Source: Octopus vulgaris
Lineage: Eukaryota
Assembly: GCA_951406725.2 (NCBI GenBank)
Contig: OX597816.1
Location: 25,172,001 to 25,236,000, forward strand
Reading direction: 5' to 3'
Length of the DNA: 64,000 nt
Position numbers: made by a program. Below are positions 3,001-64,000 of this stretch, one piece after another (position 1 is the first letter of the stretch; each line of letters starts with the position of its first letter).

Positions 3001-6000
3001 CAGTCCTGTCTTCGTATGGTACTGTACATTGACTTTGCGACAATGTCATGTCTCATGGGAAACTAATATCATGCAGATATTTTTTGGGCAGTTGCTGATG
3101 ATACGTAAGAAGTCCATCATGCTGTCATGGCATTTTCGTAGCGTGGAGGTCCAGAGATATCTTTATCTCTCTTGTTTACCAGTTATTTAGTAAGAATCTC
3201 CTGTTTGCGACTAGGAAAAGTATAGCCTTCTAGGTGAAGTGTGATGTAGACATCGCAATCCAAGACAGGCTACTAGCCTCGTTAATATCATTGCTATGTA
3301 AGGCGGCGAGCTGGCAGAAACGTTAGCACGCCGGGCGAAATGCTTAACGGTATTTTGTCTGCCGTTACGTTCTGAGTTCAAATTCCGCCGAGGTCGACTT
3401 TGCCTTTCATCCTCTCGGTGTCGATAAATTAAGTACCAGTTACGCACTGGAGTCGATGTAATCGGCTTAATCCCTTTGTCTGTCCTTGTTTGTCCATCTC
3501 TATGTTTAGCCCCTTGTGGGCAATTTAGAAATAAGAAACGTTAGCACGCCGGGCGAAATGCTTAGCGGTATTTCGTTTGTCTTTACGTTCTGAGTTCAAA
3601 TTCCGCCAAAGTCGACTTTGCCTTTCGTCCTTACGAATAGTACCAGTTATGTACTGGGGATCGATCTAATAGACTAACTCCCTCCCCCAAAATTTCGGGC
3701 CTTGTGCCTAGAGTAGAAAGGAATATTGCTGCTATGTAGTTGCGACGTACATACCCATACGGTATATATATATATATATATATATATATATATATATATA
3801 TATATATATATATACTATATATATATATATATATATATATATATATATATATATATATATATATATATATATATATATATATATATATATATATATATAT
3901 ATATATATATATATATATATATATATATATATATATATATATATATATATATATATATATATATATATATATATATATATATATATATATATATATATAT
4001 ATATATATATATATATATATATATATATATATATATATATATATATATATATATATATATATATATATATATATATATATATATATATATGTATATATAT
4101 ATATATATATATGTATATATATATATATATATGTATATATGTATATATATATGTATATATATATATATATATATATATATATATGTATATATATATGTAT
4201 ATATATATATATATATATATATATATATATATATATATATATATATATATATATATATATATATATATATATATATATATATATATATATATATATATAT
4301 ATATATATATATATATATATATATATATATATATATATATATATATATATATATATATATATATATATATATATATATATGTATATATATGTATATATAT
4401 ATATATTATATATGTATATATATATGTATATATATATATATATGTATATATATATATATATGTATATATATATATATATGTATATGTATGTATGTATGTA
4501 TGTACGTCATTATTCTGTTTTATTTCAAGATTTCTTGTCAGTAGGGAAAGAGCTGGTTTCTAACCTAGATCCAAGGCACCTTCATTAAAATTTCAACACA
4601 AACAACAAGGTATTTTCGTTTGTCTGTCTGTCGGTCTGTATGTATATATACGTGCAGATTTGTATGTTTTGTTTTATGTATGTATTTTCATGCATATACT
4701 TGCATATCTAGACATGCTCGTATATACTTAAATGATAAACTTCTGGAAAGTTTTACAGATTTTTTACAGTTCCATTGATGGCTGGTATCTGTAGTCTTCG
4801 AACCAGCTTTCTCCTTTCTGGTTTTGAGAAGCCTAATTTCTCAAGATTGGTATTTAGGCAACGTGTTACATATCCTAGTGCCCCAATAATTACAGGTATA
4901 AACATGAACTTGTAAGCTTGATAGAGTAACTGCAGATTTCTCAATAGTTCAGCGTAGGTATTCTCTTTTCCACTGATCTTCAGCTTTATGTTAACATCCA
5001 CTGGGCAGCTGATTTCCACAGCTGTACACATTTTCTCTTTATCCCAAATCATTATACCATTGTATGTATGTATGTATGTATGTATGTATGTATGTATGTA
5101 TGTATGTATGTATGTATGTATGTATGTATGTATGTATGTATGTATGTACGTACGAAATTGTATACATGAATCACGGTGTTTATGTATACAAACAAACAAA
5201 TTTTATGAAGTTTTATTCCTTATATTTCACTATTGTCAAAAGCTATGAACTAGAAAATTAAGTATTTTTTTCTTGCTGCTAATATGGGAGAAAAGGGAAG
5301 GAAAAAAGCTAGAGAAAAACACAAGAAAGGAAATTTCTCCGTTATTCCATTGTAAATATACACAGGTCTGCGAAATAAAATTTTTATTTCTTTTATACAG
5401 GAGTTAATCCATGCCACAAAAGGCCGTGTAAGAACGGTGGTGTATGCATGAGGTTAGGAAATGGCTTCCACTGTAAATGCCGACCTGGTTATACTGGACA
5501 AAACTGCCAAACATGTAAGTATAGCACAAAAAATAATCATAGTCAATTGCCGTAGATTTACATTAGTTTTTTTGTTTTTATAGAAGTACGCAGAAGAGCT
5601 TACGTAGGTGTCTTATGGAGACATAAAAAGGAAGGTGAATGAATGATTGGCTTGGTGAATGAAAATATCTTCGTCCGGTTTATATATATATATATATGTG
5701 TGTATGTAGAAAAATACAAACTGGGACAAGAACGTAAAACATTTAGAAGACGATACAAAAAACGGACGGGACATTCGAAGCCTTCAATCTTCAGTCAAGG
5801 ACCGGATCATCCTAGCAATTTCGGCTGATTAATATATATATATATATTTCAAGAAAGAGGTTGTGAATACAACCAACCAAGGGATAATATCTATCCAGTA
5901 TACTGCTGGTAGAATACCCAATTATTAATACACAAGTGTTTTTATTGCATTGCAATTACATTACCGAGTGTACTAAATGGGTGAGAGTAAAGATTCATTT

Positions 6001-9000
6001 TACCATTAATTTATAGAGCAATAAGAAAATGGAGGGGATCAATAGGTGGTATTTATTAACTTTTAGACATTATATTATGTCAAAAATGACAATTACAAGA
6101 ATATACATACATGTATAACATATTGTGCTATATATACATAAAATATATAAAGATGTAAAGCATAATAAGTTATATATGTATGTATATTCTTGTAATTGTA
6201 ATTTTAGTAAATAAATAAATAAATTGACATAATATAATGTCTAAAAGTTGATGAAACACCTCCCTTTTCTTATTGCCCTCTCTCTCACTTTATATATATT
6301 ACGTGACCGACCAGACCATCAGATGTTGTTACACATCGCTGGTTACAATGCGTTCGCATTGTTTTAGCCTTCGAATGACGCCACCCCGCTGGCTAAGCGA
6401 GCAGGCCAATAGAAGAAAGAGTGAGAGAAAGAGTGGTGAAAGAGTACAGCAGGGATCACCACCCCCTGCCGGAGCCTCGTGGAACTTTAAGGTGTTTTCA
6501 CTCAATAAACACTCACAACGCCCGGTATGGGAATCGAAACCGTGAGTCCGCTGCCCTAACCAGTGGGCCATTGCGCCTCCATATATATGTATATATATAT
6601 ATATATATATATATATATATATATATATATATATATATATATATATATCAGAGGCGACTCCAGGTCATCAGCGTCATTCGGGCTTATCACAGATTTCGTA
6701 TACGACGAATGCCTGCTCATAGAATTTCCTGTTTTTCTGCTTTCTTTCTAACTCCAAATAGCTTGTTTTGTTTTTCTATATCTGGCGCTATGTTTTTCTC
6801 CATTTCTAAGTTAAGGGTAAAAATAAAGCAAGCCTGCAAAACACAACTGATCTTTACACTCAGATACACAGAATAACAGCAATCAAATAACAATAATGGA
6901 GTGTACAACAAACATGAGCGATCTTACTGTCGCCTCTACTGGTGACAAGAGACTCGTTCGTTCGTTCGTATTAACCTGAGTTGCTGGATAAATTTTCGTT
7001 CCTTTAAGAATATTGTTGAACGAAAACTTTTCATAGATTAGAATTTAAATACTAATCTCTATAGAAATGCACCTCCAAGACGACCGCCATATGCTGAACG
7101 AAAATAAATACGAAAATAACTGCGACCAGGCTCAATAAAAAAGGAGCTCGAGTTATTGGCTGCAATTACATACTTGAAGTTAGTGTTCGCCACTAATATA
7201 TATATATATATATATATATATATATATATATGTATATATGTATATATATATGCATATATATATGTATATATGTATATATATGTATATATATATGTATATA
7301 TGTATATATATATGTATATATGTATATATATATGTATATATGTATATATATATATATATGTATATATATATATATATATATATATATATATATATATATA
7401 TATATATATATATATATATATATGTATATATATATGTATATATATATATATATATGTATATATATATATATATATATATATATGTATATATATATATATA
7501 TATATATATATATATATATATATATGTATATATATATGTATGTATATATATGTATGTATATATATGTATATATATAAATATGTATATATATATGTATATA
7601 TATATATGTATATATATATATGTATATATATATATGTATATATATATATATATATATGTATATATATATATATATATATATATATATATATATATATGTA
7701 TATATATATATATATATATATATGTATATATATATATATATATATATATGTATATATATATATGTATATATATATATATATATATATATATATATATATG
7801 TATATATATATGTATATATATATATATATATATATATATATATATATATATATATATATATATATATATATGTATATATATATGTATGTATATATATGTA
7901 TGTATATATATGTATATATATAAATATGTATATATATATATGTATATATATATGTATATATATATATATATATATATATATATATATATATGTATATATA
8001 TATATGTATATATATATATATATATATATATATATATATGTATGTATATATATATGTATATATATATATATATATATATATATGTATATATATATGTATA
8101 TATATATGTATATATATATGTATATATATATGTATATATATATATATATGTATATATATATGTATATATATATGTATATATATATGTATATATATATGTA
8201 TATATGTATATATATATGTAAATATATATATGTAAATATATATATGTATATATATGTATATATGTATATATATATATGTAAATATATATATGTAAATATA
8301 TATATATGTATATATATATGTATATATATATGTATATATATATGTATATATATATGTATATATATATATGTATATATATATATGTATATATATATATGTA
8401 TATATATATGTATATATATATGTATATATATATGTATATGTATATATGTATATATGTATATGTATATATGTATATATGTATATGTATATGTGTATATGTA
8501 TATATGTATATATGTATATATGTATATGTATATGTGTATATGTATATATGTATATGTATATATGTATATATATATATGTATATATGTATATATATATATG
8601 TATATACATATATGTATATATATATATATATATATATATATATATACATACACATATGTATATACTGTAACAATTCGTTTTGTTTTTCAATGCTAAATGA
8701 AAAGTAATAAAATAAGATGAAAACTTATATATCTCTGCCTAAATTTGCAAACACATACACATGCATACACACTCGTACACTCACACACAAACACACACAC
8801 ATATGTGGTCTGATCAATAAGTATCCGGACGGTTGACATAGTAACGAAGCTAAGGCACGCAAAGTAAGACCGCTTGGCACAGATTGACCTTATATATTTA
8901 TGGATTTACTTATATTCTTTTCGTTATTGCCCACTTTATAGAATGACATAGTATTTATAAATTTGTCTGAAGCCTATGTTATTTTCAAGAATCCGTTTAA

Positions 9001-63000: not shown

Positions 63001-64000
63001 TCCGTATATCCCAAATTACAGGCCTTGTGCTTCTAGTAGAATGGATTATTATTAGGGAGCCGTATTCCTATTGTGAATTCTGAGACGGACTTTCCACGCT
63101 GCACACATTGAAGACAATTAAAAAAATCACGTTAGATATTATTAGTTTGTGAATAAATTAGTTATTCATATAACAATTGCATTAATTATTTAACAGTTGC
63201 ATTGTTCTTCTTAATCGCAATTCACTCGACTGAGTGGACTTGTGATCGAAGGTGTTCTAACGATCACCACCTCCTCGTAGAGCCGAGCTAACCATTATAT
63301 TTCTTATCTTTTAAGGTTCTTTAAGAGTAAAATGTAGTTATCTGTCTGTGTTTGGTTATCTATCTATCTATCTATCTATCTATCTATCTATCTATCTATC
63401 TATCTATCTATCTATCTATCTATCTATCTATCTATCTATCTAATTTGCTTCACTTTGTTTAGTTCTCAGCTTGCTTGTTTCCCTGTATTTGAATTGAAGA
63501 CATTGTATATTATATAGATAAATATTGATATGTTTTAAAGATTTCTAAAGTTTTTCATTTTTCAATACTTTGCAGGTTTTTCTGAATGACCTATATCCTA
63601 AATTACGTCAAGTAAACCATTATATGTACAAGCACAAATAAAGAGTCTAAATATCTATTTGAAAAAATTCTTAGTCTTTCTTTAAATTCTTCTTTTAAAA
63701 ATGTTTCGTCTTTAAAATCTTCTTGTGGTTATTAGAAATTGATGCTGCTGTTTGTTTGTTGAGCGAAGCGGTCTTCGTCCTTGGGAGAAGTCCGAAACGC
63801 AGTCCTTTGCTATTCGTAAGACCCCCAGAAGAGAAAGCAGGTCAACCCCCGACACCGAGAGCATCGACGGATGGATGAATGCGCGTCCAGGCTCAGCGGT
63901 TTCGTAGGAAGTCGGGGACAAGAAACAGGAAGAAAGAGTGAGAGAAAGTTGGGGCGAAAGAGTACAACAGGGGTCGCCACCACGCTGGAGCCTCGTGGAG

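What the first reader, a model, noticed from the sequence alone, without database searches (positions are those of the whole stretch)
5401..63642. Large mosaic protein (cationic EGF rod, 2 VWA, VWD-C8-TIL, 2 PAN): candidate cephalopod adhesive, mucus or egg-cement scaffold
Seen: at least 1800 aa with 24 EGF, two MIDAS-intact VWA, one VWD-C8-TIL-TILa assembly and two C-terminal PAN domains, with no TM segment. Established: tandem basic EGF repeats form mussel plaque protein mfp-2, VWA domains form byssal PTMP1, and VWD-C8-TIL units drive polymerisation in mucins, FCGBP, zonadhesin and sea-star Sfp1. Inference: this combination, which I do not recognise as a named gene, could be a lineage-specific secreted glue or matrix polymer that automated pipelines would label Notch- or fibropellin-like.
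Basis: partly seen in the sequence, partly recalled or inferred. Interest (0 to 1): 0.85.

Follow-up and report, generated by a model that had tools for sequence, protein, structure and literature searches.

The report
Octopus polycationic EGF–VWA–VWD–PAN secreted protein
This is one large octopus gene for a secreted, very positively charged modular protein that databases mislabel as Notch; it probably acts as a crosslinking scaffold outside cells, but where it is made is still unknown.

Summary
On the + strand, 34 exons (5404-63589) form one frame-consistent chain of 1,809 codons plus a stop. The order is EGF, VWA, 18 EGF, VWA, 5 EGF, VWD, C8, TIL, a Cys-rich EGF-like linker and 2 PAN, followed by AATAAA. 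There are 24 intact EGF exons. Every domain passes its Pfam cut-off except "TILa", which was not found. No segment looks transmembrane.

The window is Octopus vulgaris: public model P0054 maps letter for letter. Public models call the gene "Notch homolog" or "matrilin-2" and are split, truncated or partly read out of frame. The signal peptide lies upstream of the window; orthologue models carry it.

The protein is strongly polycationic, net about +182. It belongs to a gene family seen so far only in octopods. Members share the VWD-to-PAN tail, and one paralogue has an acidic EGF array.

The adhesive, mucus or cement function remains inference: no paper or dataset I could read names this gene.

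Verdict: a real, uncharacterised, lineage-specific variant built from known modules. Interest is moderate.

The parts
5404..5514 (+). EGF exon (second EGF of the protein by the O. sinensis model P0073), net +6
   Evidence: (Pfam EGF 39.2 bits)
9119..9685 (+). VWA1 exon, 567 nt, phase 1-1, DxSxS present, net +20
   Evidence: (100% to P0073 105-293)
12766..12879 (+). EGF-A exon (EPC..VNLWKDFKCIC type), net +6
12984..13097 (+). EGF-B exon, net +8
15061..15171 (+). EGF-B exon, net +7
15755..15865 (+). EGF-B exon, net +7
17351..17452 (+). decayed EGF pseudo-exon (first Cys is Tyr, 3' end runs into a microsatellite); approximate bounds
19326..19436 (+). young EGF-B exon 1 of 9 (..NGGVCIGRGRSFSCKC..), net +7
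20806..20916 (+). young EGF-B exon 2 of 9
21609..21719 (+). young EGF-B exon 3 of 9
22633..22743 (+). young EGF-B exon 4 of 9
24843..24953 (+). young EGF-B exon 5 of 9
25885..25995 (+). young EGF-B exon 6 of 9
26836..26946 (+). young EGF-B exon 7 of 9
27864..27974 (+). young EGF-B exon 8 of 9
31962..32072 (+). young EGF-B exon 9 of 9
33311..33421 (+). EGF-B exon, net +7
36200..36310 (+). EGF-B exon, net +7
37251..37361 (+). EGF-B exon, net +6
39966..40076 (+). EGF-B exon, net +8
40243..40332 (+). EGF pseudo-exon (one Cys loop missing, in-frame stop at 40297-40299)
41073..41183 (+). EGF-B exon, net +8
42879..43445 (+). VWA2 exon, 567 nt, phase 1-1, DxSxS present, net +15
46083..46196 (+). second EGF-A-type exon, net +4
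46581..46691 (+). EGF-C exon, net 0, holds RGD and O-Glc and O-Fuc consensus sites
47067..47177 (+). EGF-C exon, net 0, holds RGD
48562..48672 (+). EGF-C exon, net -2
49797..49907 (+). EGF-C exon, net +1
51605..51855 (+). VWD, N-terminal half (phase 1 to 0); no GDPH
52797..53065 (+). VWD, C-terminal half with CGNCNG..DD (phase 0 to 2)
55080..55342 (+). C8 exon, 9 Cys
58451..58641 (+). TIL exon, 9 Cys
59439..59622 (+).
61361..61597 (+). PAN1 exon
62441..62653 (+). PAN2 exon
63576..63589 (+). last coding exon (G-F-S-E, TGA stop)
63637..63642 (+). AATAAA polyadenylation signal
   Evidence: read from the sequence

Best explanation
SHOWN.
- One Octopus vulgaris gene has 34 exons in the window. Its signal-peptide exon(s) lie upstream of the window.
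- It encodes a secreted protein of at least 1,809 residues with no TM segment. The order is EGF, VWA, 18 EGF, VWA, 5 EGF, VWD-C8-TIL, a Cys-rich EGF-like linker, PAN, PAN.
- The 19 EGFs before VWA2 carry net +6 to +8 each, and both VWA domains are basic. The whole in-window product is about +182.
- The gene belongs to a chromosome-linked family found so far only in octopods. Its members share the VWD-to-PAN tail.

INFERRED from the known behaviour of the modules.
- The protein is an extracellular scaffold or crosslinker.
- The rigid polycationic EGF rod binds polyanionic or GlcNAc-type glycans, such as sulfated mucus polysaccharides, glycosaminoglycans or chitin-like polymers.
- The two MIDAS-type VWA domains bind matrix proteins through a metal ion, as collagen VI, matrilin and byssal PTMP1 domains do.
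- The single D assembly (VWD-C8-TIL with a CGNC motif and no GDPH self-cleavage site) links chains by disulfides.
- The tandem PAN pair is a lectin-like end.
- The most likely setting is an epithelial secretion: skin or sucker mucus, or the egg-attachment cement.
For: Gene structure and identity:
- The exon chain, splice sites, phases, stop and poly(A) signal come.
- P0054 (O. vulgaris) maps letter for letter in 21 segments.
- A signal peptide is present in orthologue models P0002, P0076 and P0073.
- No hydrophobic 19-mer reaches 1.6.

Charge:
- Orthologues are also polycationic: O. bimaculoides model +186, Argonauta +98.

Module relatives:
- VWA2 is closest among solved structures to collagen VI alpha-3 and to mussel PTMP1 (4cn8, E 3.4e-47 over 2 stretches).
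- The VWD half is closest to FCGBP, VWF residues 469-542 and MUC2.
- CG[ND]C..DD is kept, and GDPH is absent, in 7 of 7 family members checked.
- A model of the family tail (mean pLDDT 69.5) best matches the two-PAN galactose lectin SML-2 (2yil, E 2.2e-4). Next come the MIC4 apple pair, plasminogen PAN and the heparin-binding HGF N domain.

Literature:
- Tandem EGF repeats bind GlcNAc polymers in a byssal adhesive (PMC11697411, abstract only).
- The skin-mucus proteome domain counts fit the family (PMC10138644, passages).

Selection:
- The 9 young EGF exons are 98.1% identical, against 77% and 86% for 200 nt of flanking intron.
Against: - No expression, peptide or localisation data for this gene were available. 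The setting (mucus or cement) is a guess.
- There is no Ser/Thr-rich mucin stretch (S+T 13-14%) and no cystine-knot domain. It is therefore not a gel-forming mucin.
- Tyr is sparse, so DOPA chemistry as in mfp-2 is unlikely.
- The VWA-EGF-VWA layout and collagen-VI-like VWA domains fit an interstitial matrix adaptor equally well.
- A single D assembly does not guarantee polymerisation; several single-VWD proteins do not multimerise (recalled).
- Among the young exons, synonymous and non-synonymous codon differences are about equal (38 vs 36). Their uniformity may therefore reflect gene conversion rather than selection on the protein.
- The fold matches for PAN have low TM-scores (0.39-0.41 by target).
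- Pfam run on the whole model P0054 did not list C8 or TIL, although the single exons pass.
Confidence: 0.5

Rival explanations
1. It is an interstitial matrix adaptor, a functional analogue of matrilins. It would bridge collagen fibrils and proteoglycans in octopus connective tissue or cartilage. The D assembly would replace the matrilin coiled coil as the oligomerising end, and the cationic EGFs would bind sulfated proteoglycans.
For: - The VWA, EGF array, VWA order matches matrilin-2 (that layout is recalled).
- An annotation pipeline named the 5' part 'matrilin-2' (P0073).
- The closest non-octopod VWA relatives are collagen VI, collagen XII and cartilage-matrix-protein-like proteins at 30-45% identity.
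- Collagen VI alpha-3 is the top solved structure.
Against: - There is no room for a coiled coil: only 4 residues follow PAN2.
- The family appears restricted to octopods and evolves fast in copy number. That is unusual for core matrix proteins.
- The tandem PAN tail resembles lectins.
Confidence: 0.25
2. It is a haemolymph or epithelial defence and clotting factor. A polycationic, multimerising protein would agglutinate microbes or seal wounds, in the manner of VWF or hemolectin-type proteins.
For: - The combination of a D assembly with VWA domains recalls VWF.
- A strong positive charge is typical of microbe-binding proteins (recalled).
- PAN/apple domains occur in clotting-contact factors (FXI and prekallikrein are among the hits).
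Against: - No discoidin, CTCK or protease domain was found.
- No haemocyte data name it. The octopus haemocyte marker mentioned in PMC9712504 is svep1 (passage).
- This reading rests wholly on analogy.
Confidence: 0.1
3. It is a gamete or egg-coat binding protein, as the 'zonadhesin-like' names of its paralogues suggest. It would be made in the oviducal gland or gonad and would evolve fast under sexual selection.
For: - Paralogues are named zonadhesin(-like).
- A 'ZAN' transcript rises at the fertilisation stage in the O. maya oviducal gland (PMC8976471, passage).
- EGF copy number differs between species.
Against: - Those names come from shared VWD-C8-TIL modules only.
- The O. maya ZAN qPCR primers (PMC6522055) have 0 matches in the window at up to 3 mismatches. 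This is weak evidence, because the species differ.
- There are no MAM, mucin or TM parts.
Confidence: 0.08
4. It is a Notch-family receptor or ligand, as the database names say.
For: - Names given by sources.
- The EGF units carry Notch-type O-glycosylation consensus sites: O-Glc in 13 of 24, O-Fuc in 4 of 24, EOGT in 16 of 24 (the consensus patterns are recalled).
Against: - No LNR, NOD, TM, RAM, ankyrin or DSL parts are present.
- The reading frame ends 4 residues after PAN2, with a stop and AATAAA.
- VWA, VWD and PAN domains are foreign to Notch.
Confidence: 0.01

Closest known systems
Matrilin-2 (vertebrate VWA - EGF array - VWA - coiled coil)
   Same: Two collagen-VI-type VWA domains with DxSxS flank a long EGF array, and the protein is secreted. 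A pipeline even names the 5' part matrilin-2.
   Different: There is no coiled coil. Instead it has 5 more EGFs, a VWD-C8-TIL assembly and two PAN domains. The EGFs are polycationic, and an EGF precedes VWA1. The matrilin layout is recalled.
Mussel foot protein mfp-2 and the EGF-rich byssal proteins of Barbatia
   Same: Tandem basic EGF repeats in a secreted protein. EGF repeats are reported to bind GlcNAc polymers (PMC11697411, abstract).
   Different: Only 0-2 Tyr per EGF, so there is no obvious DOPA chemistry. The protein is much larger and has VWA, VWD and PAN modules. No evidence links it to an adhesive gland. The mfp-2 details are recalled.
Mussel proximal thread matrix protein 1 (PTMP1, PDB 4cn8)
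   Same: Second-best solved relative of VWA2 (E 3.4e-47 over two VWA stretches).
   Different: PTMP1 consists of two VWA domains only. The similarity is at the domain-family level, about the same as to a single collagen VI domain (81 bits).
VWD-C8-TIL proteins: VWF, gel-forming mucins, FCGBP, zonadhesin, sea-star Sfp1
   Same: One D assembly with the CGxC..DD motif. The best solved relatives are FCGBP, VWF 469-542 and MUC2.
   Different: There is one assembly rather than several. There is no GDPH, no PTS mucin stretch, no CTCK, no MAM, no TM, and no lectin or discoidin parts as in Sfp1. The Sfp1 make-up is recalled.
Tandem PAN/apple lectins of Apicomplexa (SML-2, MIC4) and the HGF/plasminogen N domains
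   Same: The modelled tail best matches the two-PAN galactose lectin SML-2, then MIC4, plasminogen and the heparin-binding HGF N domain. Pfam PAN_1 matches both exons.
   Different: Sequence identity is 13-18% and TM-scores are low. The sugar-binding residues were not examined.
Notch (the database label)
   Same: Many EGF units with Notch-type O-glycosylation consensus sites.
   Different: It has none of the receptor's defining parts. It is secreted, and VWA, VWD and PAN modules are present.

Membership tests
Notch receptors | Tandem EGF repeats | tested here: met
   24 EGF exons
Notch receptors | LNR/NOD region, transmembrane segment, RAM and ankyrin repeats downstream of the EGFs | tested here: not met
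   The frame ends at 63589, 4 residues after PAN2, with AATAAA at 63637. Maximum hydropathy is 1.42. Pfam lists no such domains.
Matrilins | VWA domain(s) with MIDAS joined by EGF repeats | tested here: met
Matrilins | C-terminal coiled-coil oligomerisation domain | tested here: not met
   The C-terminus is VWD-C8-TIL-linker-PAN-PAN followed by 4 residues. No coiled-coil predictor was run, but no unassigned stretch is left.
Gel-forming mucins / VWF | VWD-C8-TIL (D) assembly | tested here: met
   All three pass Pfam cut-offs exon by exon. FCGBP, VWF and MUC2 are the best PDB matches.
Gel-forming mucins / VWF | Several D assemblies, a Ser/Thr/Pro-rich mucin region (mucins), a C-terminal cystine knot | tested here: not met
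   One VWD only. S+T is 14% in the in-frame part of P0054. Pfam lists no CTCK.
Zonadhesin | MAM domains, mucin-like region, multiple VWD domains, TM anchor | tested here: not met
mfp-2-type EGF adhesives | Tandem basic EGF repeats | tested here: met
   19 EGFs with pI 9.3-9.8
mfp-2-type EGF adhesives | DOPA-modified Tyr and production in an adhesive gland | not testable with these tools
   Only 0-2 Tyr per EGF. No modification or expression data were available.
Octopod VWA/EGF - D assembly - 2 PAN family (unnamed; defined here) | C-terminal cassette VWD, C8, TIL, Cys-rich EGF-like linker, PAN, PAN, then stop | tested here: met
   Shared by P0054/P0055, P0121 (Argonauta), P0122 and P0123. 41 columns are invariant in the tail alignment A1.
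PAN/apple domains | PAN fold with its conserved Cys core | tested here: met
   PAN_1 41.3 and 26.4-28.6 bits against a cut-off of 21.4. The fold search returns PAN/apple proteins first, although with low TM-scores and a model of mean pLDDT 69.5.
   No TILa match at E<=1 for exon 59439-59624 or for P0054

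The most novel reading that the evidence does not exclude
Octopods evolved a private toolkit of oppositely charged scaffold proteins. This gene is the polycation (about +182). Its chromosome-linked paralogue P0122 is the polyanion: its 21-EGF array carries net -35 and has pI 4.7. Both carry the same D-assembly plus tandem-PAN tail. Secreted together, they would co-polymerise through that tail and condense electrostatically, like a complex coacervate. The result would be a glycan-binding gel or glue, such as sucker or skin mucus or the egg-stalk cement. 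Stiffness or stickiness would be tuned by the fast-changing number of EGF exons.
Probability: 0.12. Interest if true: 0.75.

Novelty: new variant of a known kind. Interest (0 to 1): 0.45.

Why it matters
If the inferred role is right, this is a new blueprint for a wet biological material. It combines a disulfide-rich rod of about 19 cationic EGF units, metal-dependent VWA binders, a mucin-type linking module and a lectin-like PAN end. It is apparently confined to octopods and changes quickly in repeat number.

There is also a practical point. All four public models of this gene that I read are defective:
- Two translate much of the cationic array out of frame (O. vulgaris P0054 and O. sinensis P0055).
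- One is cut off after VWA1 and ends in transposon-derived sequence (O. sinensis 'matrilin-2', P0073).
- One lacks the PAN end (O. bimaculoides P0002).

Proteomic and transcriptomic studies that rely on the two out-of-frame models would miss or mislabel those EGF peptides. The exon table given here allows a direct re-search of the published mucus, sucker, egg and gland data.

Tried and rejected
- Complex prediction, two copies of the D-assembly stretch of P0054 (residues 656-1042): 'no answer', score 0.00. This counts neither for nor against self-association.
- Protein Atlas search with the tail of P0054 gave only generic VWD-C8-TIL clusters at 0.76-0.79, below the level that counts.
- Tandem Repeats Finder found no array in 18000-34000. 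The units are about 1 kb, beyond its 500-base period limit. Unit likeness was measured by script instead.
- A PDB sequence search with the PAN1 exon gave nothing significant; the best E-value was 0.19.
- The O. maya 'zonadhesin' qPCR primers had 0 hits in the window.
- Literature. 'LOC115209189' is in 0 papers. Searches on octopus with proteome, sucker, oviducal gland, zonadhesin and chorion found no paper that names this gene. A search for adhesive proteins combining VWD, EGF, PAN and VWA found 2 unrelated papers. The 'matrilin' search was swamped by 'matriline'. A cephalopod venom preprint was irrelevant.
- RGD as an integrin site: present in 2 of 24 EGFs and kept in O. bimaculoides, but absent from the Argonauta orthologue (0 RGD). 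I do not rely on it.
- Assembly artefact as the source of the 9 near-identical exons: rejected. Their flanking introns differ by 14-23%.

Full report
WHAT IS THERE

The window is AT-rich (GC 0.24-0.44 per 2 kb), full of microsatellites and holds no N. A Cys-pattern scan of all six frames gave 38 matches. Of these, 24 are EGF units on the + strand, 13 are CVCV-type microsatellite translations and 1 lies in the TIL exon.

Each EGF unit sits in its own exon of 111 or 114 nt, with an AG acceptor, a GT donor and phase 1-1. Pfam matched all 10 of 10 longer ORF stretches above its curated cut-offs: two VWA (163 bits each), VWD in two halves, C8, TIL, two PAN_1 and EGF.

With boundaries fixed from splice sites and from the public model, 34 exons from 5404 to 63589 chain without a frame break. 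They total 5,429 nt, which is 1,809 codons plus TGA. All 34 have AG acceptors and all 33 internal donors are GT. AATAAA follows at 63637-63642.

No 19-residue window exceeds a hydropathy of 1.42, so no membrane span is present. Two decayed EGF pseudo-exons lie in introns, at about 17351-17452 and at 40243-40332 (the latter with an in-frame stop). The exon after TIL gives only sub-threshold EGF-like matches.

WHOSE GENE IT IS

The VWA2 exon, searched alone, found 137 proteins among 857 candidates. The hits include:
- O. vulgaris 'neurogenic locus notch homolog 2-like' (P0054), 100% identity.
- O. sinensis LOC115209189 (P0055), 100% identity.
- O. bimaculoides 'neurogenic locus notch homolog protein 1' (P0002), 90% identity.
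- Collagen VI, collagen XII and matrilin-like proteins at 30-45% identity for nearly all the rest.

P0054 maps letter for letter onto the + strand in 21 segments, so I take the window to be Octopus vulgaris. Nothing in it looked human.

None of the four public models of this gene that I read is whole:
- The first 249 residues of P0054 are EGF exons read from the wrong codon position.
- O. sinensis splits the gene. 'Matrilin-2' (P0073) holds the signal peptide, two EGFs and VWA1, then a tail from a transposase fragment at 10626-10796. P0055 has the same frame error as P0054.
- P0002 runs from the signal peptide to TIL but lacks the PAN end. A separate O. bimaculoides fragment (P0126) carries that end.

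The signal-peptide exon and first EGF of P0073 have no match in the window, so the gene starts upstream. Window sequence was searched exon by exon, and wider questions used the public proteins by id.

A FAMILY, SO FAR OCTOPOD ONLY

A search with the tail of P0054 (residues 656-1195) found 7 proteins among 3,491 candidates. They were the Octopus orthologues, an Argonauta hians orthologue (P0121, 54% identity) and two O. sinensis paralogues (P0122 at 44%, P0123 'zonadhesin-like' at 33%). Both paralogues lie on a contig of the same length as P0055's. All of these end with TIL, a Cys-rich EGF-like linker, PAN, PAN and a stop.

A profile of that tail was run against 1.84 billion representative proteins. 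It gave 118 hits at E<=1e-3, 20 at <=1e-10 and 6 at <=1e-30. I scanned the first 60 of the 119 sequences (the hits plus family members) with my own domain queries. PAN occurred together with VWD, C8 or TIL only in P0121, P0122, P0123, P0126, P0127 and P0139.

The other strong hits are multi-PAN proteins, three of the four examined also with Sushi: P0124, P0125, P0131 and P0132. A further profile search found 9 proteins among 3,596 candidates. The named close ones were all octopod 'zonadhesin(-like)'. Two weak hits were a bird alpha-tectorin-like protein and an unnamed one.

The taxa of P0127, P0134 and P0158 are unknown, because that library carries no names. Squid and cuttlefish genomes were not searched directly. 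'Octopod only' is therefore provisional.

CHARGE AND REPEAT DYNAMICS

The 19 EGFs before VWA2 each carry net +6 to +8 (pI 9.3-9.8). The second EGF-A carries +4, and the last four carry 0, 0, -2 and +1. VWA1 and VWA2 add +20 and +15. The in-window total is about +182, with 188 Cys.

The O. bimaculoides model is +186 and the Argonauta model +98. Paralogue P0122 is net -26 overall, and its 21-EGF array is -35 with pI 4.7.

Nine EGF exons (19326-32072) are 98.1% identical in nucleotides. The 200 nt upstream and downstream of them are 77% and 86% identical (36 pairs). They are therefore real copies, not an assembly artefact. Synonymous and non-synonymous differences are about equal (38 vs 36), which points to gene conversion as much as to protein-level selection.

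All nine share residues (CHSRPC....GR[NH]C) that differ from the four corresponding O. bimaculoides units (CH[KR]RPC....GRYC). The O. bimaculoides model has 11 EGF-B units against 17 here, and 5 EGFs before VWA1. The array has thus expanded or been homogenised within species.

MODULE-LEVEL CLUES TO MECHANISM

- Both VWA exons start and end with Cys and hold DxSxS.
- The best solved relatives of VWA2 are collagen VI alpha-3 and byssal PTMP1.
- The VWD half matches FCGBP, VWF 469-542 and MUC2.
- All 7 of 7 family members checked keep CG[ND]C..DD and lack GDPH. Reading CGxC as the motif tied to VWF multimerisation is recalled.
- A model of the family tail (first sequence Argonauta, 4-row alignment, mean pLDDT 69.5) best matches the two-PAN galactose lectin SML-2 (E 2.2e-4). 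Next come the MIC4 apple pair, plasminogen PAN, the heparin-binding HGF N domain and the FXI/prekallikrein apple domains, all with low TM-scores.
- By recalled consensus patterns, 13 of 24 EGFs fit O-glucose sites, 4 of 24 fit O-fucose sites and 16 of 24 fit EGF O-GlcNAc sites. This probably explains the Notch label.

WHAT IT MOST LIKELY DOES

It is shown to be a secreted, Cys-rich, polycationic mosaic protein. The rest is inferred. I read it as an extracellular crosslinker with these parts:
- a stiff cationic EGF rod that binds anionic or GlcNAc-type glycans;
- VWA domains that bind matrix proteins through a metal ion;
- a D assembly that links chains;
- a lectin-like PAN end.

I put 0.5 on this, with an epithelial secretion as the most likely place. 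An abstract reports that tandem EGF repeats bind GlcNAc polymers in a byssal glue (PMC11697411). An O. vulgaris skin-mucus proteome lists VWD as its most enriched domain (11 proteins). It also lists VWA (11), a Cys-rich C8-type domain (6), MSP1-like EGF (3) and Apple-like (3, not enriched) (PMC10138644, passages). That combination is the signature of this family, but the protein lists are in supplements I could not open.

Against this reading:
- no expression or peptide evidence exists for the gene;
- it has no mucin-type Ser/Thr stretch;
- it has few Tyr;
- its matrilin-like layout would suit an internal matrix role.

Rivals: matrilin-like interstitial adaptor (0.25), defence or clotting factor (0.1), gamete or egg-coat binder (0.08), Notch-type signalling (0.01; contradicted by the gene's end).

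COMPARISON AND NOVELTY

It fails the defining tests for Notch (no TM or ankyrin), matrilin (no coiled coil), zonadhesin and gel-forming mucins (single D assembly, no PTS, MAM, CTCK or TM). It works most like a hybrid of a matrilin-type adaptor and a D-assembly polymer, with an mfp-2-like basic EGF rod.

No paper in the searched library names the gene or this domain combination. The gene itself is already in databases as predicted, mislabelled and mis-framed models. I rate it a new variant of a known kind, with interest 0.45.

The boldest reading still open is that this polycation and its acidic paralogue form a charge-matched pair that condenses into an octopod-specific gel or glue.

LEFT UNCHECKED

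- The joined spliced model was not searched.
- Cluster accessions were unavailable.
- Paper supplements were closed.
- Squid, cuttlefish and Nautilus genomes were not searched.
- No transcript or peptide data were available.

Noticed in passing
19326-41183 (EGF exons) versus public models P0054 and P0055: Both public models translate the 111-nt EGF exons from the wrong codon position (249 residues in P0054). They return to the true frame only in the exon at 41073-41183. Peptide or domain searches against them would miss those EGF units of the cationic array.
   Followed up: yes
10551-10796 (+): A transposase fragment lies in the intron after VWA1 (Pfam DDE_3, 20.8 bits, below its cut-off). The O. 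sinensis 'matrilin-2' model P0073 ends in it (98% over 10626-10796). That model is therefore probably truncated by a transposon-derived false exon.
   Followed up: partly
29175-29873 (-), with a further ORF at 28409-29263 (-): A reverse-transcriptase ORF (Pfam RVT_1, E 4.2e-28) from a retroelement sits in the intron between two young EGF exons. It accounts for the long gap from 27974 to 31962.
   Followed up: partly
12 places on both strands, e.g. 2617, 16005, 23171 (+); 3453, 17925, 35647, 53595, 53779, 59863, 60046, 60226 (-): A short interspersed repeat whose translation reads ..[34 protein letters not shown].. occurs 12 times in the window. Three of the copies are in tandem near 60 kb.
   Followed up: partly
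3631-4588 and 7059-8738: Two very long AT-rich microsatellite blocks (translated as YIYIYI on both strands), of about 1 kb and 1.7 kb, lie in the first introns.
   Followed up: no
46581-46691 and 47067-47177: RGD lies in the C5-C6 loop of two EGF-C units. It is kept in O. bimaculoides but absent from the Argonauta orthologue. Paralogue P0122 has 3 RGD.
   Followed up: partly
O. sinensis paralogue P0122 (not in the window): This paralogue has the same tail, but its 21 near-identical EGFs are acidic (array net -35, pI 4.7). It is the charge opposite of the window's gene and lies on a contig of the same length.
   Followed up: partly
19326-32072 versus O. bimaculoides P0002 residues 484-668: All nine young EGF copies share species-specific residues that differ from those of the O. 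bimaculoides copies. This is a pattern of concerted evolution or of independent expansion after the species split.
   Followed up: partly
O. bimaculoides isoform model P0076: This predicted isoform joins EGF-A directly to the EGF-C units and skips the whole EGF-B array and VWA2. All of these exons are phase 1-1, so exon skipping could give products of many lengths.
   Followed up: no
61699-61998 (-): An ORF that by eye resembles the C-terminal part of a mariner-type transposase (..PPDIAPSDFHLF..) lies in the intron between PAN1 and PAN2. Pfam gave no match at E<=0.01.
   Followed up: partly
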